Sequence record: NC_048748.1
Reading direction: 5' to 3' (one strand)
Origin: Escherichia phage vB_EcoS_HdH2
Length of the DNA: 64,000 bases
In this document: positions 1-59,959 of the stretch, piece by piece
How the letters are laid out: every line of letters starts with the position of its first letter
Position numbering within the stretch: position 1 is the first letter of the stretch
The notes under the pieces: generated by a model
What the model was told of the DNA's origin: nothing
Databases searched by the model: none
Seen by the model: only the letters and a program-made list of their open reading frames with translations
Translations under genes and position numbers: made by a program

Positions 1-624
1 GTTGAACCTAATCTTGCACACTTGCGTATTGGTGAATGGTATAAGAAATATCCGGGTCAAGTAGTAAATTTGACTACTAACGTTGATGACCTTATTGAGC
101 GTGCTGGTGTTCCGCATAGTGACATTTTGCATATTCATGGATATTTAAAAGAGGTTGTTGTAGCTGACAGCTACAATAGTAGCAATAAACGAGTTATTGA
201 TGTTGGGTATAGCTCTATTGACCCAGATGATTATAAATGGGCTAAACCTAATGTAATCTTCTTTGGTGAGCATGCTCCAGCGTACGCAGAAATGTACAAT
301 ATTTTTGATGGTATTACCAGTCAAGATATGATCGTTGTGGTTGGTTGCTCTAACCAAGTAATTAACTTCTACTGGGAATTATTTCCTGTTCTTAATTTGA
401 CTGCTGCCAAATTAATGGTAGTTAACTACTATGATAGTGCCCTAGCGACAGAGCCAGGCTATCAAGGTATGACTCGTAGTGAGATGTACCAGCTGGAAGA
501 ACGCGGTATCCCTTACTGGAGTAAAGGGGCTGTAGATGCCTTCAGTGACCCTGATTTTATTGCTCGTGTAGAAGCTCATCTAGAGGGTAGACCTTATATG
601 CCGGGGAAACAAATATGTCCATAA
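1..624 (+). CDS. Sir2-like (sirtuin-family) protein, 5'-partial; reading frame is open to the window start
   Basis: Sirtuin-like motifs in order: PNLAH, TTNVDDLIERAG (cf. TQNIDxLxxxAG), HIHGY (HG), VIFFGE (FGE), VVVGCSNQV (GTSLxV-like). No CxxC zinc-ribbon cysteines between HG and FGE. Confidence 0.5.
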   Translation, partial: VEPNLAHLRIGEWYKKYPGQVVNLTTNVDDLIERAGVPHSDILHIHGYLKEVVVADSYNSSNKRVIDVGYSSIDPDDYKWAKPNVIFFGEHAPAYAEMYNIFDGITSQDMIVVVGCSNQVINFYWELFPVLNLTAAKLMVVNYYDSALATEPGYQGMTRSEMYQLEERGIPYWSKGAVDAFSDPDFIARVEAHLEGRPYMPGKQICP

Positions 625-797
625 TTAAATCTGTGTATACACACCCTGATGATATATTTGTATGGGCGGACGGTAGTTGGTGCTATCGCTGTGAGTTGTG
701 GGAAATGGACTATAAATCCGATGACTATGGTGTTATATATGTGGATACGGTTGAGTATGATACGTTCTTAGAAAGGAACAAAAATGGAAATAAGTAA
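615..797 (+). CDS. hypothetical small protein
   Basis: 60-aa ORF overlapping the stops/starts of both neighbours; no recognisable motif. Confidence 0.35.
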   Translation: MSIIKSVYTHPDDIFVWADGSWCYRCELWEMDYKSDDYGVIYVDTVEYDTFLERNKNGNK

Positions 798-1290
798 TAC
801 TCCAATTATTTTTCTAGACATTGATGGGGTGCTCAATTCGAGCATCTCCCACCATCATGCACCTGATGATGAAAAGATTTTCTTTGGAAGTGACTGGGTT
901 TTCAAACCGCTTCTCAAGGCTTTTCAGGACTTTATTCGTCCTTCTCCGATAATGATTGTTGGAGTATCCTCATGGTTCTCTGTCAGGAATGAGATGGAGA
1001 ACGTTCAGATTATGACCGGATTAGGTCTTATCGATCGTTTTCTTGGTACAACGGATTTTACTGGTGGTGGGCTATCTAGGGGTAATTCTGTTCTTCGCTT
1101 CGTTGAAAAGCATAAGCTCAAACATTGGTGTGTGCTGGATGATGCCGGTGCTATGATGTATCAGTATCCAACGGTTATAGTCAATGGTAGAACAGGAATA
1201 AATCTTCAGGATTTAAAAGCTGTTAGCTATATGCTAGAATTTAGCCCAGATCTTGAAATGTGTAAATCCTTACAACAATTTAAGGTGTAA
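784..1290 (+). CDS. HAD-superfamily hydrolase-like protein
   Basis: N-terminal IIFLDIDGVLNS (HAD motif I, DxDG) and later VLDDAG; 168 aa. Confidence 0.5.
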   Translation: MEISNTPIIFLDIDGVLNSSISHHHAPDDEKIFFGSDWVFKPLLKAFQDFIRPSPIMIVGVSSWFSVRNEMENVQIMTGLGLIDRFLGTTDFTGGGLSRGNSVLRFVEKHKLKHWCVLDDAGAMMYQYPTVIVNGRTGINLQDLKAVSYMLEFSPDLEMCKSLQQFKV

Positions 1291-1292
1291 AT

Positions 1293-1721
1293 ATGTTCAA
1301 TAATGTATTCTCTAAAGAAGCTAACCCAATTTTGGTTAACTTTTGGCGTACTCTCCCGGCTAGCCTGTATAATGAGGCTATTAACTCCTTGAAAATATGG
1401 TGTGAGAATAACGAAATCTCCTTTGCTTTTAAAGATGATATTGATGAGGCCCCCTGTATTGGTTTAATTGTTCAGGTAGAGGAGGGTCTTGAAGAAATTG
1501 TCGGCTGGAAAGAGTTAGATGAAATGGGCTTAGTTTTTGCGTTAAACTATAAGCTGTTTATGCCTGCTAAGCATCGCCTCGTTGTTAACTATAAAACCAG
1601 TGAATCTCCTGGCTTTCAAGTTAATGAACATTACGGTTGGTCTTACTCACCGGAAGAAGTAAATGAGGGGATTCAGAAACTTCGACGTTTCGGGTATATG
1701 ATCCCAGGTTTAACCGCCTAA
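1293..1721 (+). CDS. hypothetical protein, tandem paralogue A
   Basis: 142 aa; shares PCIG, EL(D/S)xMGL(V/I)(F/V)ALN(Y/F) and G(Y/I)(M/Y)(I/V)PGL blocks with the next ORF. Confidence 0.65.
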   Translation: MFNNVFSKEANPILVNFWRTLPASLYNEAINSLKIWCENNEISFAFKDDIDEAPCIGLIVQVEEGLEEIVGWKELDEMGLVFALNYKLFMPAKHRLVVNYKTSESPGFQVNEHYGWSYSPEEVNEGIQKLRRFGYMIPGLTA

Positions 1722-1730
1722 GGGGGCACA

Positions 1731-2123
1731 ATGGAACAAGTATATTGGCGTCAGATTGATCCTAGTTTGGTGAAGCGTGCGGAGAAGCTGCTACAACGTT
1801 GGTTGGTGGTAAGACAAGCCTCCTTCACTTTTCCGGAGCAGCAAACGGATGATCCATGCATTGGCGTTTTCCTGTCTGGATATGCCGGGGAGTGGGAATT
1901 GGATTGGAATGAATTGTCTGCTATGGGCTTGATTGTTGCCCTAAACTTCTCTATATTCCATCCACGTGGTTTGGCCATATGTCGTGTGCCTGATGACGGT
2001 TGTTCGCCCCATCTTTTACAGGTGGAAGATGATATTTGGGAGTACACTCCAGGTATTCTCAAAGAAGCTAAAGAACAATTAAATCGTGTTGGGATCTATG
2101 TTCCGGGGCTAAATGATGAATGA
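1731..2123 (+). CDS. hypothetical protein, tandem paralogue B
   Basis: 130 aa; paralogous to 1293..1721; followed by hairpin plus T-run. Confidence 0.65.
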   Translation: MEQVYWRQIDPSLVKRAEKLLQRWLVVRQASFTFPEQQTDDPCIGVFLSGYAGEWELDWNELSAMGLIVALNFSIFHPRGLAICRVPDDGCSPHLLQVEDDIWEYTPGILKEAKEQLNRVGIYVPGLNDE

Positions 2124-2146
2124 GTTTTATTAGCTGAACTCTGATT

Positions 2147-2171
2147 ACCGAGTCATTTTGGCTCGGTTTTA
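2147..2171 (+). terminator. intrinsic terminator
   Basis: accgag/ctcggt stem followed by tttt, directly after stop of 1731..2123. Confidence 0.55.
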
Positions 2172-2214
2172 TCCGTACTCAAGACCAGTGATAGCATCTT
2201 TGGAAAAAATTTAC

Positions 2215-2243
2215 TTGCATGATGCTCAAAATCTTGATATAAT
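2215..2243 (+). promoter_or_regulatory. sigma70-type promoter
   Basis: TTGCAT, 17-bp spacer, TATAAT. Confidence 0.65.
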
Positions 2244-2740
2244 ATTTATATTGAATCGAGAGACATTAGTAAAAATTAATTTTGCTAATTTTTCTTGTTT
2301 ACAATCCGCGATACGGAACAGTTAGGCTGCCCCATTAAGGGTTGTTTTAACTATTACTAGTGTTTATATTGCATTAGTTAATCTTCAATTAAGTGATCTG
2401 TGTACCCTGAATTCGGAAAGGTAAATCCAAACCGTGCATATTTAGCTCGTTATATAGGCAGAGTTTTATATGGGGGTGCGAACGAAAAGAGCAGCGAATG
2501 GCGGCACGTACAGTAGTCACCTACCAATAGGATAGTGAGGACAAATAGAATCGGCTTAGCGGCCAATGACCTAGGTTCTATTCTGTATATGAGCGAAGAG
2601 AGCACAGCACTGAGATATGATAACTTATTCATATTGTTTGATGATAATTGATGTTTACGTAAATAGTAGTAATAGTTGTTCTATTCTTTCTGAATAGTCC
2701 TAAAGAAAAGATTTCGATTAACCAACACAGGAGTATTGTT

Positions 2741-5530
2741 GTGTTTTCTATCCTCCAAGGTCACGCTGGGTTTTCTCGTGATTTAGCAACAGGTATTTGG
2801 CGAGAAATCAAAGCGGAAGATTATACCTTTGCCAAGCGATTCTCGAAAGAGCATCCAGAAGGTAAACCAGCTTCTATGCCCTTCAAATTTGATGTAATAG
2901 AAGAGCACGACCCTCAAAGCCTTGCCGAAATGTTACCACTTATGAGACGTTTAACGTCTGACCCTCATATCGTTGCGGTACGAGGTCGGTGTCTTGCACC
3001 TAAAAATAACGTGCGACGTAAGAAAGGTAACTTTAATGTATCTAATCCTAGTAATATTATTGCTATGGACGTGGATGGTATCCTAGATACCGGTGGGTAT
3101 GACAAGTTTAACCTTGTTGGTATGGCCCGCCACATTATTAAGATGTTGAATAGTATTAGTGAGGACATGTTCCCTCTTGATGCAGGCTTTATAGCTCATG
3201 CATCGTCTTCGGCTGGGCTAAAACCAGGTATCCGAATGCACTTAATGCTAGAATCTAACGTCAAGGTAACTCAGGGTCAGTTAAAGTTCTTATTTACATC
3301 TATCAACGATAGTAGTAAGCAAAAATTTGGTTTTGATATTGCCGACTTAGCTTATTATTCATCTGTCCAGCTCCACTATTTTGCCGACCCCTTATTTAGT
3401 GATGGTATTGTTGATCCGTTTAAAGCGGAGAGTAAGCCACGTCTGGTGTATGTTAAAGGTTCGAAAGTAAATTTGCCCAATAATCTGGTTGACTATGAAA
3501 CAACTAGAGGGGAGTTTAAGGAAGAGTTTTATTCTTTACTTGATCAAATTAAAGGCAAAAAGATCGCGTCTGATAAAGTAGAAGAAACCATCAGCGAATT
3601 GGAAGAAGCTGAGGATGGGGTGTACCTGCGTATTATCCCCAAACTCTACCATAGAGCATTAGAGGATGGTGTTGATTTTGCATGGCTAGAACGTGAGATT
3701 AAACCCGCTTTATCTGAATATATTGCAACTAAAGATAACAGTCGTAATATTCAAGATTACTTTAATAACGGTCGTAAGCAGGCTCTCAAAGCGTTTGTTA
3801 ATAATTCTAAACGTGAGATTCCATTAAATCTGAAAGGTGTTCCGCTCAAGAAATTAGAAGTGGATTCTCCACCAGAAGTTCCGTACCTGAAGATTAACAT
3901 TGTGCCTCCAAAAGGCCATATAACATTTGTTAAAGCAAGTCTTGGTACTGGTAAGACTACGGCAGTAACTAAATGGCTGGACGCAGGTGTTCTTCCTGGC
4001 AACTTTTTAGCAGTTACAAATACTAGAGCACTGGTATCTTCAAACGCTAAGAAATTTAGCGCAGGACAATATGATAAGTCTGTAGATATGCTCAACTTTA
4101 AACGTGGAGCTATTGATCGTATGTCCACGACTATTCACTCTTTGCATAAGTTCAAAAGTTTTATTGGTCAAATAGATACCATTTTTATTGATGAATGTGA
4201 TGCTGTAATGAATGATCTATTATTCGCACCTGTTGTTAAGCAACGTCGCGAATGTATTCAAGTTCTACGTGACATCCTCATGACAGCTAAAACTGTAATT
4301 CTATCAGATGGTGATATTAGTGCCGAAACTATTGAAGCATATGGTTCTCTAATTGATTTTGATAAACCAGTAGCATTTTATAATCATCACCGTAAGATGC
4401 TGTCAAAAGCTCATGCTTATGAGTTCCCTGATGAATCCAGTATTTGGGTTGCACTTCAGACTTCCCTGGAGATGGGTGAGAAATCTATCCTAGTATCTGA
4501 CTGTGGGCCAGATGAACTGAATGAGAAGGGCATGGCGTTGCGTCGTAATACGGGTGCGTTAGTTAAGGAAATCCACTCAAACTCTACGTCTGATGTAGAT
4601 ATTAGACGTATTCTGGATTACACAACTAATGAACTAATTGATCAACAAATTGATTGCTTATTATGTAGTCCATCCGTAACGAGTGGTGTTGACTTTAACT
4701 ATTTTGATAACGTATTTGTTATTACTAGAACTAGTAATCAAGCGCCAAACATGCGCTTTCAAGCAATCAGGCGCGACCGTGGTGCTCAGAATATCTATTA
4801 TTTTATTGATAAATCCACTAGTGGATTCTCCGCAGGTTCTGAACAGTATAATATTGATGAAGGTTGGCTGGAGTTAGCACAGCAATTATACGCACGTCGC
4901 AGGGAGCTGGAATCTAGGAACTATACTAGTACTTTACGTTATTACTTGCTTGATCAAGGTGCAACTATTGATATTTTCAGCGAAAGCTGGGGAACTATTG
5001 AAGGTGCTGGTAAAGAATATACAGAAGAGCGAATCAAAGCCATTCTGCATTCAACTCCGGATTATTGTGCTCCACGTCATGCGGATGCGTATGAAGCTAA
5101 ACTACTTCTTGTTCGCTATTATCATCTTGAGTCTATTAAAGATGTAACAGTTGAGCATGTTGAACAATATATCAAAGATAAACCGAATGATCGAGCCGCC
5201 TTCTTCCATAAGATGCACGAGATGTTTTGGGAAGATATTAAGAAGTGTTCAAATGTAACCATTAAACCATTCATAGAAGCTCTGAAAGGTAAGAAAAAGG
5301 ACTTCTTCCTTAAAACAGGTCAAAGTGCTAACCCAAAATATGCTAGAATGTATCTTGGTATGATGGGTATTGGTAAGGATATGAACACTGAAAATATCGT
5401 AGACTGGTATAGAACCTATTGTAAAATCGAGTGTATGCCAATCCCTTATAAGTTCATGACTGACGAGGAAAGACATATGCACGATGAAGCAATGGCAGAG
5501 CTAGGTGCTAGAAATGACAGTGAAGAATAA
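2741..5530 (+). CDS. SF2 helicase-like ATPase, replication-origin-binding-protein type
   Basis: 929 aa; Walker A KASLGTGKTTAV and Walker B IFIDECD; GTG start 6 nt after AGGAG. Confidence 0.6.
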   Translation: MFSILQGHAGFSRDLATGIWREIKAEDYTFAKRFSKEHPEGKPASMPFKFDVIEEHDPQSLAEMLPLMRRLTSDPHIVAVRGRCLAPKNNVRRKKGNFNVSNPSNIIAMDVDGILDTGGYDKFNLVGMARHIIKMLNSISEDMFPLDAGFIAHASSSAGLKPGIRMHLMLESNVKVTQGQLKFLFTSINDSSKQKFGFDIADLAYYSSVQLHYFADPLFSDGIVDPFKAESKPRLVYVKGSKVNLPNNLVDYETTRGEFKEEFYSLLDQIKGKKIASDKVEETISELEEAEDGVYLRIIPKLYHRALEDGVDFAWLEREIKPALSEYIATKDNSRNIQDYFNNGRKQALKAFVNNSKREIPLNLKGVPLKKLEVDSPPEVPYLKINIVPPKGHITFVKASLGTGKTTAVTKWLDAGVLPGNFLAVTNTRALVSSNAKKFSAGQYDKSVDMLNFKRGAIDRMSTTIHSLHKFKSFIGQIDTIFIDECDAVMNDLLFAPVVKQRRECIQVLRDILMTAKTVILSDGDISAETIEAYGSLIDFDKPVAFYNHHRKMLSKAHAYEFPDESSIWVALQTSLEMGEKSILVSDCGPDELNEKGMALRRNTGALVKEIHSNSTSDVDIRRILDYTTNELIDQQIDCLLCSPSVTSGVDFNYFDNVFVITRTSNQAPNMRFQAIRRDRGAQNIYYFIDKSTSGFSAGSEQYNIDEGWLELAQQLYARRRELESRNYTSTLRYYLLDQGATIDIFSESWGTIEGAGKEYTEERIKAILHSTPDYCAPRHADAYEAKLLLVRYYHLESIKDVTVEHVEQYIKDKPNDRAAFFHKMHEMFWEDIKKCSNVTIKPFIEALKGKKKDFFLKTGQSANPKYARMYLGMMGIGKDMNTENIVDWYRTYCKIECMPIPYKFMTDEERHMHDEAMAELGARNDSEE

Positions 5531-55755: not shown

Positions 55756-57429
55756 TTACTGTACAAAGAATTTACCGTTCTTAAAGTCGATCAAAGTACG
55801 CTGGCCGTTCGCATAGGTAATAACATGCGTTTGCGTCCAGCTTGACGCGCCAACGTTGTAACCCATATCCAGACTACCAGACACGCCGGCAGTGTATACG
55901 CCGCCGTAAATGCTGGCGGTGTGAGTGTGCCCCGTGTTTAATTTGCCCAATTTCTTAAATTGCTTCGGATTGCCACGGCTCCCGTTAATGCCATTGTGAC
56001 CGTGTACGCCGCATTCAATGCCTGCAATTTTAAATGATTGGTCAGTGGTCAGGAAAATAGCGTTAAATTCACAACCTGCAACCTTGCGCAGCGCATAATC
56101 TAGCACGTTGAAAGTATCGTCTTTTTCTGCAATAGCTCCGTAAATCGCAGCATTAAGGCGGTGATATAGTTCCGCGTTGGCTGGATCGTCTTTAATGTTA
56201 GCATTACGATCATCAAGCCAACGGGATAACGCCAGATCATGGTTAGATTCAACAATGATCGTTTGAGCAAAATCGCGCTCCATTGATTCCAGTACGCGCC
56301 CGGTATCGATCAAATCATCAATAACCTTATCACGTCCGGCGGCGTATTGTTTTGCTAGGAATACACCAGACGCACGATTATGATGATTGCGTGATGTAAA
56401 ATCATGCACGTCATGCACAAACTGATATTTTGGCTTCAGAATATCAACAAGCCCGTAGGTGTCACCATGCCCCCACGACGCAGCGGCGCACTCCTCATCT
56501 AATTTTTCAGCGTGAATATCGCCATATTGTAAACCTAAAACGTGCCCCGTTGTTTCATAGCATCCGGCGGGAGTGGCGCAAATATTCAAATCGTAAAACA
56601 TGCCGCTTTCGTCCATCGTTTCAAGCTGGCGAACAAAAAATTCCCCGTCCTCGTCGAACTCAACGACAAGCGCACCAAAGTTATGTAGCGCCTCGGCCTT
56701 TTGCCCTGCTTTCTGCTGGATGTAGTTTTTAAGCGTTGCCGTGCCCGTTGAATACATGCGGCGCACTACTTCACCTTTTAAAGCTGGCACGCTTTCGGCG
56801 GTGATTTTAGCCGCCCCGATTGCCAGACCTTCCAGATTAAGCGCCGTTGCAGTTTCAGCGAATCCAGAAAGCGGATAATCTGCGGTAGGTAACACGTTAA
56901 TCTCCGCCATGAAAGCAAAACGGCGATTATTTAAAAACACGTTTTTGCTGCAAATATATTTATCAAATGCAGAATCATATTTGATTCCGTCCGCGCCCTC
57001 ACCATTTTGGAATCCGTTTTTATTATAAATATACTTAGAAACAAGCAAATCAGCGCCGATAAACTGGGCATATTGTTCAAGCGAGGCTAAAAAGTTTTTA
57101 TGCGGGAAAGTATTATTCTGAATCGAGGTAATAATAAAGCGTTTGCCTTGTTTTACTTCCCAGCTTTCCACCGTGCTAGAAATAACTCCGGCGGCTTCAG
57201 GGCGGTCATCGTTTTTAATAGCTTTTACAGTTTTTGCCGCTTTTGGTTTCGCTGGTTTATTTGCTTCCAGCCAATCACAAATAGCGGTGGAATGCTTTGG
57301 AGTATCGTAAACCGCTTTCGAAATATCGTCGCATACTTCCAGTTTAGTAGCGCGCAGACGTTTACCATAGAAATTGAAGTCAGCGGCAAGGTTCAGGATA
57401 ACGGTTTGTTTTTCTGCGGAAATAATCAT
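55756..57429 (-). CDS. A1: A1-like pre-early protein, calcineurin-type metallophosphoesterase
   Basis: 557 aa; motifs GLQYGDIHAEK, VESNHD, GVHGHNG, GHTH. Confidence 0.7.
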   Translation of the reverse strand: MIISAEKQTVILNLAADFNFYGKRLRATKLEVCDDISKAVYDTPKHSTAICDWLEANKPAKPKAAKTVKAIKNDDRPEAAGVISSTVESWEVKQGKRFIITSIQNNTFPHKNFLASLEQYAQFIGADLLVSKYIYNKNGFQNGEGADGIKYDSAFDKYICSKNVFLNNRRFAFMAEINVLPTADYPLSGFAETATALNLEGLAIGAAKITAESVPALKGEVVRRMYSTGTATLKNYIQQKAGQKAEALHNFGALVVEFDEDGEFFVRQLETMDESGMFYDLNICATPAGCYETTGHVLGLQYGDIHAEKLDEECAAASWGHGDTYGLVDILKPKYQFVHDVHDFTSRNHHNRASGVFLAKQYAAGRDKVIDDLIDTGRVLESMERDFAQTIIVESNHDLALSRWLDDRNANIKDDPANAELYHRLNAAIYGAIAEKDDTFNVLDYALRKVAGCEFNAIFLTTDQSFKIAGIECGVHGHNGINGSRGNPKQFKKLGKLNTGHTHTASIYGGVYTAGVSGSLDMGYNVGASSWTQTHVITYANGQRTLIDFKNGKFFVQ

Positions 57430-57526
57430 AGTAATAAAGCTCCATTAAAGGGATTAAAAACGTTTGTTATTGGCAAATATTGCCAGATATAACGCCGCTT
57501 ATTTACAGCGTTATAACTTGCAATAT

Positions 57527-57772
57527 TTAACTAATCGGCATAAGGCTAGAACTAACACCACAAGCAACGGCGGCAATAAAGCAAAGTAAGCCCAACCGCT
57601 TTGCTAATTTAGATTTACGTTTAAAATAATATGAATCTAAATCATTTTGAAAATAAGCGAACAATAATGAGGCCGCTACAATAAATAAGCCTAAAATTAG
57701 CGATTCAGTGGGGTAAAAGATCATTTTAATAACTCCAGTCAAAGGGAAATTATAGTGGGGAATATTCCCCAC
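57527..57772 (-). CDS. small membrane protein
   Basis: 81 aa; two hydrophobic helices. Confidence 0.5.
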   Translation of the reverse strand: MGNIPHYNFPLTGVIKMIFYPTESLILGLFIVAASLLFAYFQNDLDSYYFKRKSKLAKRLGLLCFIAAVACGVSSSLMPIS

Positions 57773-57781
57773 TAATTAAAT

Positions 57782-58189
57782 TTATTCGCCTGCGGCTTGT
57801 TTTACTTCATCGGCAACGCCTAACAGCTGCGCCACGGCGTCCAACGTTTCTAATTTTGCGCTTTCCAGTGATGCCAGATCGTCAACGTCTTTGATAATGC
57901 CGGAATCAATGGCATGTTTAGCGATAACACGCACATAATGCGCTTTACGAATGGAACTGCCGCCGCCAACTTTACGCGGCTTATCGCTTTTCTGATACGC
58001 TTTCGCGCTGGTCAATTTTGAGCGAACGGACACGGGGGAGGCCGCACCTACTGCTTTCGCAATCTCTTTCAAGCCGTCGCTATTTGCGAAATCTAAACCG
58101 TTTTCATTGATTAGCTGCTGATACATGGAAACAGCCTGCTGGGTGTTTTCTTCATTCCAAGAAAATTTTGCGGTTTTAACGTTAGTCAT
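57782..58189 (-). CDS. hypothetical pre-early protein
   Basis: 135 aa; AGGAG SD. Confidence 0.55.
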   Translation of the reverse strand: MTNVKTAKFSWNEENTQQAVSMYQQLINENGLDFANSDGLKEIAKAVGAASPVSVRSKLTSAKAYQKSDKPRKVGGGSSIRKAHYVRVIAKHAIDSGIIKDVDDLASLESAKLETLDAVAQLLGVADEVKQAAGE

Positions 58190-58290
58190 GATTATAACTC
58201 CTATTGAATTAATTTAAGGGATAAGATTAACATAATGTTAATCGTTATATCCCCCGAACTACTGGGGGATATAAAAGTAACACTATAAAC

Positions 58291-58542
58291 TTATGCTACA
58301 GCTTCCCATTTTTCGTTACGCTGGATAACCTTTACAGCGTCGCCGGATTTAACCCGAACGCTATAAATAGTTTTTCCGTTGTTACTCCGTTCCGTTTCAG
58401 CGTATACCGCATCAATTACATCAAACGGCATAAGCGCCGCGCCTTTGATGCGTTCGGTTTTTCCGGTTGCCTCATCCGTTTTAGTAACGAAAGGAATAAA
58501 AACGGATTGACCAATTTTAGGCGCATTAGTAACGTTTTGCAT
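58291..58542 (-). CDS. hypothetical small protein
   Basis: 83-aa ORF. Confidence 0.45.
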   Translation of the reverse strand: MQNVTNAPKIGQSVFIPFVTKTDEATGKTERIKGAALMPFDVIDAVYAETERSNNGKTIYSVRVKSGDAVKVIQRNEKWEAVA

Positions 58543-58774
58543 AGTATAAACTCCAGTTTATTTAGTGGATTGTTCCGCATTACCTGCTGTAAAAGTAGTG
58601 GCAGGTAATAAGTAACAATCCGCTCGCCATTATAATCAATTTAAGGAACTCCACTCAGGCCGCTATATCCCAGTTAGGGGGCGGGGCACATTATGGCAAG
58701 TACCGGCCGTCAAATTTTATCAAGTTATCGCTCTCATCGAACTGGGTACATCTTAAAGCCTATCGGCTAGGGTG

Positions 58775-58978
58775 TCAAACAATTTTTTGCAGTTTTTTAT
58801 GATTCTCTTTCAAGTCAATCATAATATTGCGCCAGATCATTTCCAACCCTTGCTGGCGGCCTTTCTTGTACTGCGTGAATCTATATTTTACGGATTGCTG
58901 AGCTATTGTCAACAATTTTTTAGTAGTACCATCCAATTTTTTGGCTGGTTTACCAGTTATTAAAAGCGTTTGTTTCAT
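58775..58978 (-). CDS. hypothetical small basic protein, enclosed by 24-bp inverted repeats
   Basis: 67 aa, Lys-rich; AAGGA SD. Confidence 0.4.
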   Translation of the reverse strand: MKQTLLITGKPAKKLDGTTKKLLTIAQQSVKYRFTQYKKGRQQGLEMIWRNIMIDLKENHKKLQKIV

Positions 58979-59473
58979 ATCTGCGATTCCTTATATAATT
59001 GATAAGTTTACCGCCGATAGACTTTAAGATGTACCCAATTTTTAAAGAGCGCGGCGGTAAACTTTCCCGCCGTGTAGTTCGTCATTGCCGCCCTACGAGA
59101 TAAATAATAGGGGATACCCAAAAATGGCGCAACCTTATTTTTGTAAAGAAATGTAAAGAAGGCAACACGCCCGGCGCTCACATAAGTTTAAAGGAAACGG
59201 GCGCGCGGATACCACAAAACACAGCAGATAGGCAAGTAATTTTTTCATTTATATTTGCCTTGCCCTACTTGACAAAACTTAAAAAGCTCGTGGTAGCGAT
59301 AAACGAGGGTAGGCAATGCAATGGCATACCTGAAAATTTTACCGCTTTCTAGGGCGTTTTAGGCGGCCTAAAATTGATTTAACAAATATTTAACAACTGC
59401 AAAATTGAAAAATAGTTGGAAAAGGTATTGACTTTTAAAAATCAAGACTAAATGAGTTATTTTATAAAATTAA

Positions 59474-59821
59474 TTAATTGACTTTCTTTTTATATTGTGA
59501 AGGCCGGTTTTTATTGTTTTCGGCCTGCGTTACTTGTCTAAGGTTATCCCCTTTATTATTTAGCTTGTTACGATCAATATGATCAATCATTAGATTACTA
59601 TCTATTTCACCATGTAATAGTAACCATACGACACGATGTACTAAATAACATTCTTTATTAAGTCGAACGATATAATAACCTTGTGAATAGTAAGTACCTG
59701 CAACTGTATCTTTCCTAACTCTTCCCTTATTGACTTTCCAGCGTAGTGACGTTTTCGATGTTTCATCATAATAAAAGTAATGATTAAACAAGTCATAATC
59801 CATTTCTTTATATTTACCCAT
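59474..59821 (-). CDS. free-standing HNH homing endonuclease
   Basis: YLVHRVVWLLLHG...DHIDRNKLNNKGDNLRQVTQAEN; N-terminus parallels 55176..55685. Confidence 0.75.
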   Translation of the reverse strand: MGKYKEMDYDLFNHYFYYDETSKTSLRWKVNKGRVRKDTVAGTYYSQGYYIVRLNKECYLVHRVVWLLLHGEIDSNLMIDHIDRNKLNNKGDNLRQVTQAENNKNRPSQYKKKVN

Positions 59822-59876
59822 TGTTATAGTTTCCTTATGTTATTAATTTAATCTCTATTATATTATATCAAAACCA

Positions 59877-59959
59877 TTAGCAGACTACCTAATGAGTTTT
59901 TCAAGTTTAATTAGCAGACTACTAATCCCGGAAAATCTCATTAGCCAACTAACTATTTC
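59877..59959 (+). repeat. three direct repeats of TTAGC(A/C)(G/A)ACTA(C/A)
   Basis: Copies at 59877, 59911, 59941 in the intergenic region upstream of the HNH gene start. Confidence 0.6.

What the first reader, a model, noticed from the sequence alone, without database searches (positions are those of the whole stretch)
1293..2123. Tandem paralogous genes
Two adjacent ~135-aa proteins share ordered blocks (PCIG; ELDEMGLVFALNY / ELSAMGLIVALNF; GYMIPGL / GIYVPGL) but are otherwise diverged, indicating an old duplication with diversification, typical of anti-defence or host-interaction families.
Basis: seen in the sequence. Interest (0 to 1): 0.4.

Follow-up and report, generated by a model that had tools for sequence, protein, structure and literature searches.

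The report
Twin early T5 genes, function unknown
Two neighbouring small genes of a T5-like phage are true ancient duplicates from an uncharacterised phage protein family (DUF7415); they are already catalogued as T5.106 and T5.107, are conserved rather than fast-evolving, and their function is still unknown.

Summary
ORF A (1293-1721, 142 aa) and ORF B (1731-2123, 130 aa) are paralogues: 32% identity over 124 aa, E=1e-20, z=28 against shuffles.

The window is a T5-like phage, and the pair are orthologues of T5.106/T5.107. They are the last two genes of an early operon downstream of nrdD. Both belong to Pfam DUF7415 and PHROG 2502.

The pair is present in 30 of 30 Tequintavirus/Epseptimavirus-type loci and in a Sugarlandvirus. 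Trees place one copy of each genus in an A clade and one in a B clade, so the duplication is old. Pectobacterium phage DU_PP_V has only a B-type gene.

Divergence is asymmetric. B keeps the family signature (HPxGLA..RDPxTGxS..WEY), which about 130 clusters of single-domain phage and prophage proteins share. A has lost most of it.

A published knock-down screen calls T5.107 marginally "Fit" and T5.106 "Not Fit".

My best guess, at low confidence, is a non-enzymatic binding pair acting in the early replication/nucleotide-metabolism phase. The anti-defence reading is neither supported nor excluded.

The parts
1293..1721 (+). Gene A: 142-aa acidic protein (pI 4.7), orthologue of T5.106. Two beta-alpha-beta-beta modules plus a C-terminal helix. 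This is the divergent paralogue, with a degenerate DUF7415 signature in module 2 (FMPAKHRLVVNYKTSES).
   Evidence: ORF; Pfam DUF7415 at 123 bits, PHROG 2502; T5.106 synteny; AF2 pLDDT 87.5, pTM 0.81; 31.6 bits against a profile built only from single-domain proteins, versus 67.3 for B; omega 0.08-0.09; pI
1731..2123 (+). Gene B: 130-aa acidic protein (pI 4.6), orthologue of T5.107. Same architecture as A. Module 2 keeps the canonical family signature (DWNELS..GLIVALN..FHPRGLAICRVPDDGCSP..DDIWEY).
   Evidence: ORF; Pfam DUF7415 at 106 bits, PHROG 2502, and also phrog_3954/33705/1812 through the C-terminal module; AF2 pLDDT 95.1, pTM 0.89; 67.3 bits against the single-domain profile; omega 0.12-0.15; T5.107 called 'Fit' (marginal, p=0.0215) in CRISPRi-ART
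1282..1287 (+). Shine-Dalgarno-like AAGGTG for gene A. It lies just before, and its last base abuts, the stop codon (1288-1290) of the upstream HAD_SAK_2 gene, an arrangement compatible with translational coupling.
   Evidence: read directly from the sequence
1721..1726 (+). Shine-Dalgarno-like AGGGGG for gene B, inside the 9-nt A-B spacer. This spacer is conserved in nearly all T5-like loci. In Sugarlandvirus the two genes overlap by 4 nt (ATGA).
   Evidence: sequence; spacing in 30 loci and in L004
2148..2172 (+). Rho-independent terminator ending the operon: stem CCGAGTCA/TGGCTCGG followed by TTTTAT. Related phages carry a variant hairpin, CCGAGTCAAAATGACTCGG, that still pairs.
   Evidence: sequence; T5 record annotates a terminator at the equivalent place, 58952-58976; hairpin variant in the alignment. 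The pattern scan missed it, presumably because of its stem/loop criteria.

Best explanation
SHOWN. These are the orthologues of phage T5 early genes T5.106 and T5.107. They are two paralogous, acidic, soluble proteins of about 15-16 kDa from the uncharacterised DUF7415 family. They are co-transcribed as the last two cistrons of the early operon that follows nrdD (Sir2-like, small ORF, HAD_SAK_2, A, B, terminator). The tandem duplication is ancient, predating the split of Tequintavirus, Epseptimavirus and Sugarlandvirus. Both copies have since been kept under purifying selection. Divergence was asymmetric. B retains the signature of the family's mobile 55-aa core module (W-N-E-L-S..G-L-I..I-N..H-P-x-G-L-A..R-D-P-x-T-G-x-S..D-G-x-W-E-Y), which also occurs alone in about 130 clusters of phage and prophage proteins. 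A has lost most of it. Each protein is predicted with high confidence to be a pseudo-dimer of two beta-alpha-beta-beta modules capped by a helix.

INFERRED. I think the proteins are non-enzymatic binding proteins. B's C-terminal module would carry the binding site for a target that is conserved across Gammaproteobacteria and their phages, either a nucleotide-type small molecule or a conserved replication/nucleotide-metabolism protein. A would be a degenerate partner that co-assembles with B; tight translational coupling fits a stoichiometric hetero-oligomer. The pair would act during the early phase, when DNA replication and dNTP supply are set up.
For: - Paralogy.
- Identity with T5.106/107 and operon structure (promoter after the nrdD terminator, terminator after T5.107).
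- Pair present in 30/30 T5-like loci plus Sugarlandvirus. A and B clades each contain a Sugarlandvirus copy.
- Omega is 0.08-0.09 for A and 0.12-0.15 for B. Neighbours are comparable: Sir2 0.10-0.16, HAD 0.06, replication gene 0.05.
- Asymmetry: against a profile built only from single-domain proteins, B-type copies score 50-83 bits, T5-like A-type 30-36 bits and Sugarlandvirus A-type 7.5-8.4 bits. The one Demerecviridae phage found with a single copy keeps the B type.
- Structure: pLDDT 87.5 and 95.1, with the element order beta-alpha-beta-beta repeated twice plus a helix.
- Nothing enzyme-like was found: no Pfam, NCBIfam, PADLOC or PDB sequence hit beyond DUF7415. Acidic pI of 4.2-4.9 throughout the family argues against direct DNA binding.
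- Links to nucleotide/DNA metabolism. Fusions of the core module occur with thymidylate kinase, dATP/dGTP pyrophosphohydrolase (PF04447) and ASCH/DUF3850. Genomic neighbours include nrdD/nrdG in KP15-like phages; NUDIX and GmrSD_N in RB43-like phages; gpA replication initiator (32 of 63 loci), Dam, C5 and N4/N6 methylases and DinI in P2-like prophages; and the D5-like replication gene here.
- Coupling: 9-nt spacer containing the SD site, and a 4-nt overlap in Sugarlandvirus.
- Experiment: in the T5 CRISPRi-ART screen T5.107 is one of 17 'Fit' genes (fitness -2.90, p=0.0215); T5.106 is not (-3.28, p=0.17) (PMC11879866).
Against: - No direct evidence exists for any ligand, partner or A-B complex.
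- Fusions are few (about 8 of 46 longer proteins), and some may be gene-calling artefacts.
- The genomic neighbours may only reflect residence in 'early/accessory' regions.
- In Pseudomonas P2-like prophages the single-domain gene sits in the late operon between gpL and gpX. That does not fit a replication role.
- The T5.107 fitness call is marginal and uncorrected. The screen was insensitive: primase, helicase and T5.108 scored 'Not Fit'.
- A 40%-invariant, polar-rich 55-aa core could equally be a small oligomeric enzyme.
- The internal duplication within each protein is seen only by Pfam's own HMM and in the predicted secondary structure. Independent profile comparisons do not see it.
Confidence: 0.4

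Rival explanations
1. Anti-defence or host-takeover pair. The proteins would inhibit a host immune or housekeeping protein, or sequester an immune signalling nucleotide as a 'sponge'. The duplication would give two specificities or a hetero-oligomeric sponge.
For: - The proteins are small, acidic and early.
- Single-domain relatives are scattered over T4-like, T5-like and P2-like phages in accessory slots. These include the slot right after gene A, next to the P2 tin/old region, and positions beside DNA methylases.
- The A/B stretch is the most divergent DNA locally: 75% identity against 83-86% for neighbours.
- A strongly conserved polar core and fusions to nucleotide-processing enzymes would also fit a nucleotide sponge whose ligand never changes.
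- One GenBank record labels a homologue 'anti-CBASS protein acb1'.
Against: - Omega is 0.08-0.15, no higher than housekeeping neighbours.
- The pair is invariably present in T5-likes rather than patchy.
- There is no sequence or fold match to any solved anti-defence protein above noise.
- The acb1 label is not credible. Acb1 is a ~150-aa 2H phosphoesterase with two HxT/S motifs (my knowledge). The labelled protein is an 85-aa DUF7415 protein, and A and B contain no HxT or HxS motif (sequence).
- The weak fitness effect of T5.107 knock-down was seen in a laboratory E. coli host.
Confidence: 0.3
2. Small oligomeric enzyme or enzyme subunit of nucleotide or modified-base metabolism. The conserved H, R, D, T, S, N and W/Y residues of the core module would form an active site at an oligomer interface. 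B would be the catalytic subunit and A a pseudo-enzyme partner.
For: - The core shows unusually high conservation of polar residues. N is invariant, and G, L, I, H, P, G, L and S are at least 90% conserved in 58 diverse cores.
- Fusions occur with thymidylate kinase and dATP/dGTP pyrophosphohydrolase.
- Neighbours include nrdD/nrdG, NUDIX, HAD and methylases.
- Purifying selection is strong.
Against: - No similarity to any known enzyme fold or family.
- A 55-aa module is very small for catalysis.
- A, and the N-terminal modules of both proteins, lack the motif yet are conserved.
- The fusions are rare.
Confidence: 0.15
3. The labels found in some database records are right: tail tube or tail protein, or exonuclease.
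For: Some GenBank/UniProt entries name homologues 'tail tube protein', 'tail protein' or 'Phage exonuclease (ACLAME 70)'.
Against: - The genes lie in an early operon among nrdD, Sir2 and replication genes, far from the late structural genes.
- There is no Pfam, PDB or fold similarity to tail tube proteins or nucleases.
- The labels are inconsistent between records for near-identical proteins.
- The CRISPRi-ART re-annotation of T5 lists both genes as unknown function.
Confidence: 0.02
4. A and B are one gene. The TAA at 1719-1721 would be read through, since B is in the same frame 9 nt downstream, giving a four-module fusion protein.
For: B starts 438 nt (146 codons) after A's start, so it is in frame. 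The only stop between them is TAA.
Against: - B has its own SD site and ATG.
- One T5-like locus has a 10-nt spacer, which puts B out of frame (L034).
- In Sugarlandvirus the genes overlap by 4 nt in different frames.
- Being in frame has a 1-in-3 chance expectation.
Confidence: 0.01

Closest known systems
Phage T5 genes T5.106 (YP_006934.1) and T5.107 (YP_006935.1), hypothetical proteins
   Same: Orthologues with the same lengths (142 and 130 aa), the same order and the same 9-nt spacer. They share the same operon (Sir2-like, small ORF(s), HAD-like T5.105, T5.106, T5.107, terminator, promoter, T5.108 replication-origin-binding gene). Nucleotide identity is 89-92%.
   Different: Only allelic differences. 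T5 carries two copies of the small phrog_5116 ORF upstream (T5.103/104), where this window has one.
Pfam DUF7415 (PF24187) / PHROG 2502 and 3954: single-module phage and prophage proteins of 60-100 aa
   Same: B's C-terminal module shares the whole signature (IDWNELS..GLI.RIN.EILHPLGLA..RDPETG.S..DG.WEY), at 40-50% identity to proteins from Pseudomonas, Vibrio, Enterobacter and Klebsiella phages.
   Different: The T5-type proteins have an extra N-terminal module of the same secondary-structure pattern and a C-terminal helix ending in (I/V)PGL. Only about 20 of 160 clusters have this two-module form. The tandem pair was seen only in Demerecviridae.
Phage P2 Orf91 (DUF3850/ASCH-like), the gene directly downstream of replication gene A
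   Same: In many P2-like prophages the slot after gene A holds a single-module DUF7415 gene. DUF3850/ASCH+DUF7415 fusion proteins also exist. The T5 record itself notes similarity of T5.106 to an 'ORF91'.
   Different: P2 Orf91 itself is annotated as DUF3850 only. No DUF7415 gene is annotated in that region of P2, and I did not scan P2 with the profile.
Small phage inhibitor proteins such as anti-CRISPR AcrIC4 (PDB 8dfo_M) and anti-adaptor IraD (6od1_B)

Membership tests
Pfam DUF7415 (PF24187) | Whole-protein score above the curated gathering threshold (27 bits) | tested here: met
   A scores 123.1 bits and B 106.2 bits, with two matched stretches each. The four halves score 72, 55, 54 and 55 bits on their own.
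Pfam DUF7415 (PF24187) | Canonical core signature H-P-x-G-L-A .. R-D-P-x-T-G-x-S .. W-E-Y, as seen in single-module members | tested here: met
   Met by B (FHPRGLAICRVPDDGCSP..IWEY; 67.3 bits against a single-domain-only profile). Only partly met by A (FMPAKHRLVVNYKTSESP..GWSY; 31.6 bits).
Internal tandem repeat of the DUF7415 module within each protein | N-terminal and C-terminal halves detectably homologous to each other | tested here: inconclusive
   The Pfam HMM hits both halves, and the AF2 models repeat beta-alpha-beta-beta twice. BLAST of the halves finds nothing. hhalign of an N-module alignment against the core alignment gives 1.5% probability. Reciprocal HMM searches give E above 0.3.
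PHROG 2502 (T5-like two-module proteins) | Full-length match to the 134-position profile | tested here: met
   A matches 11-142 to profile 2-134 at E 7.5e-63. B matches 1-129 to profile 4-134 at E 5.8e-60.
Fast-evolving anti-defence / arms-race gene families | Elevated dN/dS or patchy presence among close relatives | tested here: not met
   Omega is 0.08-0.09 for A and 0.12-0.15 for B, with a maximum pairwise value of 0.37, similar to neighbours. The pair is present in 30/30 T5-like loci. The nucleotide divergence of A and B exceeds that of their neighbours, but it is mostly synonymous.
Anti-CBASS Acb1 (label on a homologue in Klebsiella phage Roth90) | 2H phosphoesterase fold of ~150 aa with two HxT/S motifs (from my knowledge of Hobbs et al. 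2022) | tested here: not met
   The labelled protein is 85 aa and DUF7415 only. A and B have no HxT/HxS motif in their sequences. There is no Pfam 2H/LigT hit and no PDB sequence hit.
Anti-CRISPR AcrIC4-like fold | Significant structural superposition or sequence-profile relationship | tested here: inconclusive
Phage tail tube protein / exonuclease (labels in some records) | Homology to tail-tube or nuclease families; location among late or recombination genes | tested here: not met
   No such Pfam, PHROG, PDB or fold hit. The genes lie in an early operon between nrdD/Sir2 and the replication genes.
Known anti-phage defence system components (PADLOC) | Match to any PADLOC model | tested here: not met
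   No families at E up to 1 for A, B, the HAD gene or the Sir2 fragment.

The most novel reading that the evidence does not exclude
DUF7415 is a previously unrecognised fold that forms a widespread, mobile phage module binding an invariant small molecule, for example a nucleotide or an immune second messenger. The T5 pair would be a hetero-oligomer with one active subunit (B) and one degenerate subunit (A). In other words, this would be a new sponge or regulator class present in T4-like, T5-like and P2-like phages.
Probability: 0.15. Interest if true: 0.65.

Novelty: already known. Interest (0 to 1): 0.3.

Why it matters
As a sequence feature this is ordinary. The genes are catalogued (T5.106/T5.107, Pfam DUF7415, PHROG 2502), and their paralogy is implicit in those groupings.

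What is worth keeping is the biology around it:
- The family is spread over three major groups of Gammaproteobacteria phages.
- Its 55-aa core is unusually conserved.
- No solved structure matches the predicted fold, and no function is known.
- T5.107 is one of only a few unknown-function genes flagged, weakly, as contributing to T5 fitness.

The asymmetric A/B divergence gives a simple experimental handle: B as the candidate active subunit, A as the degenerate partner. Solving the function would annotate hundreds of phage genomes at once.

Tried and rejected
1. Heterodimer modelling. There is therefore no A-B complex prediction.
2. The afdb50 Foldseek library was not installed. BFVD returned only DUF7415 members.
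4. Internal repeat. BLAST of halves, hhalign and reciprocal HMMs were all negative, even though Pfam's model hits both halves.
5. Literature. Searches for DUF7415, PF24187, the PHROG ids, T5.105-107 and the accessions found nothing in main texts. 'orf91' papers were irrelevant. The HIDEN-SEQ preprint has no T5-gene data. Only the CRISPRi-ART supplements mention the genes.
6. The search for related loci with the broad core alignment failed because no stretch was conserved enough. P0048 gave no locus, and P0050 only re-found a T5-like locus.

**Ideas considered and rejected**
7. Long repetitive proteins in the exhaustive search (P0055, P0084, P0100, P0133 and others) hit only profile positions around 90-120, with individually insignificant domains. 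I discarded them as spurious.
8. An obligate link with the upstream HAD_SAK_2 gene. Sugarlandvirus and DU_PP_V have DUF7415 genes with no HAD gene annotated or found in the operon, and HAD homologues in T4-like phages are a different set.
9. PADLOC and NCBIfam gave no hits. Rfam found nothing in 1-3000.

Full report
**Where we are.** The first 6 kb of the window match Tequintavirus genomes at 94-97% nucleotide identity, for example vB_EcoD-Elw and NBEco001. In all, 443 phage records match. In phage T5 itself (NC_005859) the two ORFs of the finding are T5.106 (YP_006934.1, 142 aa) and T5.107 (YP_006935.1, 130 aa), both annotated as hypothetical proteins. They are the last genes of an early transcription unit. 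That unit starts at a promoter just after the nrdD terminator and ends at an annotated terminator 25 nt after T5.107. It contains T5.100, T5.101, a Sir2-like gene, one or two small ORFs, T5.105, T5.106 and T5.107. The window has the same layout:
- Sir2-like fragment at 22-624
- 60-aa ORF at 615-797
- HAD_SAK_2 gene at 784-1290
- A at 1293-1721
- B at 1731-2123
- terminator hairpin at 2148-2172
- a sigma-70-like promoter (-35 at 2215-2220, -10 at 2238-2243)
- after a long leader, the 929-aa D5-like 'replication origin binding' gene at 2741-5530.

**How old is the duplication, and how is it evolving?**
- All 30 T5-like loci I could examine carry both genes in the same order, almost always with the same 9-nt spacer. 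These were the window, T5, NBEco001 and 27 IMG/VR contigs.
- A Klebsiella Sugarlandvirus also has a tandem pair of 133 and 131 aa, overlapping by 4 nt.
- In a neighbour-joining tree of all two-module homologues, the first gene of T5-likes groups with the first gene of Sugarlandvirus. The second genes group together likewise. The duplication therefore predates these genera.
- Pectobacterium phage DU_PP_V, also in the Demerecviridae, has only one such gene at the same place, and it is of the B type.
- Nei-Gojobori dN/dS among T5-likes is 0.08-0.09 for A and 0.12-0.15 for B. This is within the range of the neighbouring Sir2 (0.10-0.16), HAD (0.06) and replication (0.05) genes.
- At the DNA level the A/B stretch is the most diverged locally: 75% identity to Epseptimavirus-type loci, against 83-86% for the flanking genes. 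The excess is mostly synonymous, so this looks like older or exchanged alleles rather than positive selection.

**The wider family.** An exhaustive profile search of 1.84 billion cluster representatives found 160 clusters.
- About 20 clusters have the two-module, 130-160-aa architecture.
- Nine are long repetitive proteins that I discard as spurious.
- The remaining ~130 share only a 55-aa core corresponding to B residues ~57-110. The consensus is IDWNELSxLGLIxRINxEILHPLGLAxxRDPETGxSxGALVxxDGxWEY.
- Most of the ~130 are stand-alone proteins of 60-100 aa from phages and prophages of Enterobacteria, Pseudomonas, Vibrio, Photobacterium, Erwinia and Aeromonas. In isolated phages they occur in T4-like genera as well as T5-likes.

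A profile built only from those single-module proteins scores B-type C-terminal modules at 50-83 bits (window B 67.3). It scores T5-like A-type modules at 30-36 bits (window A 31.6) and Sugarlandvirus A-type modules at about 8 bits. So B keeps the ancestral signature and A is the degenerate copy. This fits the B type being the one retained in the single-copy phage.

**Context and fusions of the core module.**
- Among 46 longer proteins, Pfam finds fusions to dATP/dGTP pyrophosphohydrolase PF04447 (2), DUF3850/ASCH (2), thymidylate kinase (1), PGDYG (1), DUF551 (1) and a ClpX-type zinc finger (1).
- In P2-like prophages the gene usually lies next to the replication initiator gene A (32 of 63 IMG/VR loci). 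It is often followed there by a Dam, C5 or N4/N6 DNA methylase or a DinI-like gene. This is the slot occupied in P2 itself by Orf91, a DUF3850 protein, next to tin and old.
- In Pseudomonas P2-like prophages it sits between gpL and gpX in the late operon.
- In KP15-like Klebsiella phages it lies between nrdD and nrdG. In RB43-like phages it lies two genes from a NUDIX hydrolase and from a GmrSD_N protein.

The common theme is early DNA-replication, nucleotide or DNA-modification neighbourhoods. The module is clearly mobile, however, and the association is not exclusive.

**Structure.** AlphaFold2 gives confident models: A has pLDDT 87.5 and pTM 0.81, with only the first 11 residues disordered; B has pLDDT 95.1 and pTM 0.89. 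Both show the same order of elements: strand, helix, strand, strand; strand, helix(es), strand, strand; then a C-terminal helix.
- BFVD returns only DUF7415 proteins.
- There is no PDB sequence relative.
- Whether the two modules of each protein are themselves an ancient duplication is unresolved. Pfam's 53-position model hits all four halves, but independent profiles of the N-module and the core do not recognise each other.
- The proteins are acidic throughout the family, with pI 4.2-4.9.

**Experimental data.** The only published data I found are in the CRISPRi-ART study (Nat Microbiol 2025, PMC11879866). In its T5 transcriptome-wide knock-down screen, T5.107 is listed among 17 'Fit' genes and described as of entirely unknown function. 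T5.106 is 'Not Fit'.

The numbers are marginal. T5.107 has mean guide fitness -2.90 with KS p=0.0215, and T5.106 has -3.28 with p=0.17. The background runs around -3.5 to -4.5, and strong hits score +2 to +4. Known essential genes such as the primase and T5.108 were not called. I treat this as a weak hint that B matters more than A in a laboratory host.

**Interpretation.**
- *Shown:* a real, ancient tandem duplication of a two-module DUF7415 gene, with both copies maintained by purifying selection and asymmetric loss of the family signature in A.
- *Inferred:* the proteins are non-enzymatic binders. B's C-terminal module recognises something that does not vary between hosts, either a nucleotide-type ligand or a highly conserved protein. 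A co-assembles with B as a degenerate partner. The pair acts in the early replication and nucleotide-supply phase.

The signals expected of an arms-race family, fast protein evolution and patchy presence, are absent. The database labels 'tail tube protein', 'exonuclease' and 'anti-CBASS protein acb1' found on homologues are unsupported.

**Verdict.** The finding is correct as an observation and half right as an interpretation. It concerns genes already catalogued as a DUF. Interest is modest. Its value lies in pointing to a widespread, well-conserved, structurally unmatched phage module with a simple experimental entry point.

Noticed in passing
window 2124-2740: The 617-bp non-coding stretch between gene B and the 929-aa replication gene is the best-conserved DNA locally. 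It is 91.4% identical to Epseptimavirus-type loci, against 75% for A and B and 83-86% for flanking genes. About 400 bp downstream of the promoter is nearly invariant in five phages. T5 annotates only a terminator and a promoter there, and Rfam finds nothing. It contains an 18-nt inverted repeat (2349-2366 / 2660-2677). It could be a long structured leader, an sRNA, an origin element or an unannotated small gene (ORFs + 2158-2325 and - 2450-2632).
   Followed up: partly
window 784-1290: The 168-aa gene upstream of A is a HAD_SAK_2 phosphatase-type protein (Pfam E 4e-20). Many records, including RefSeq T5.105, call it 'Sir2 (NAD-dependent deacetylase)'. That label apparently comes from phrog_18062, which covers only its last 92 residues. 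It looks like a propagated mis-annotation.
   Followed up: partly
homologues in GenBank/UniProt: Near-identical DUF7415 proteins carry contradictory names: 'tail tube protein', 'tail protein', 'Phage exonuclease (ACLAME 70)', 'RNA-binding protein' and, in Klebsiella phage Roth90 (PQ657830, 96822-97079), 'anti-CBASS protein acb1'. None is supported by sequence or fold evidence here.
   Followed up: yes
window 615-797; T5 57243-57601: T5 has two adjacent small ORFs (T5.103 and T5.104) in the same PHROG (5116), which is another tandem duplicate. This window and NBEco001 have a single 60-aa copy. Only 19 of 30 loci gave a full-length match to it.
   Followed up: no
L123 = Pectobacterium phage DU_PP_V (MF979564) 57400-59900: This Demerecviridae phage has the same nrdD - Sir2 - ... 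- replication-gene layout but only one two-module DUF7415 gene, of the B type. An 83-aa predicted membrane ORF sits where gene A would be.
   Followed up: partly
window 2148-2166 and the aligned loci (A7): The terminator hairpin after gene B exists in two forms among T5-likes, CCGAGTCATTTTGGCTCGG and CCGAGTCAAAATGACTCGG. Both can pair, which supports it as a functional terminator even though the pattern scan did not list it.
   Followed up: yes
window 1719-1733: A and B are in the same reading frame, separated only by TAA plus three codons. The frame relation is not conserved (10-nt spacer in L034, 4-nt overlap in Sugarlandvirus), so it is probably coincidental.
   Followed up: yes
L124 = phage P2 30316-30645; L009-L011: P2 Orf91, directly after replication gene A and beside tin/old, is a DUF3850 (ASCH-like) protein. 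In other P2-like prophages the same slot holds a single-module DUF7415 gene, and DUF3850+DUF7415 fusion proteins exist. This suggests the two small domains are functionally linked or interchangeable there.
   Followed up: partly
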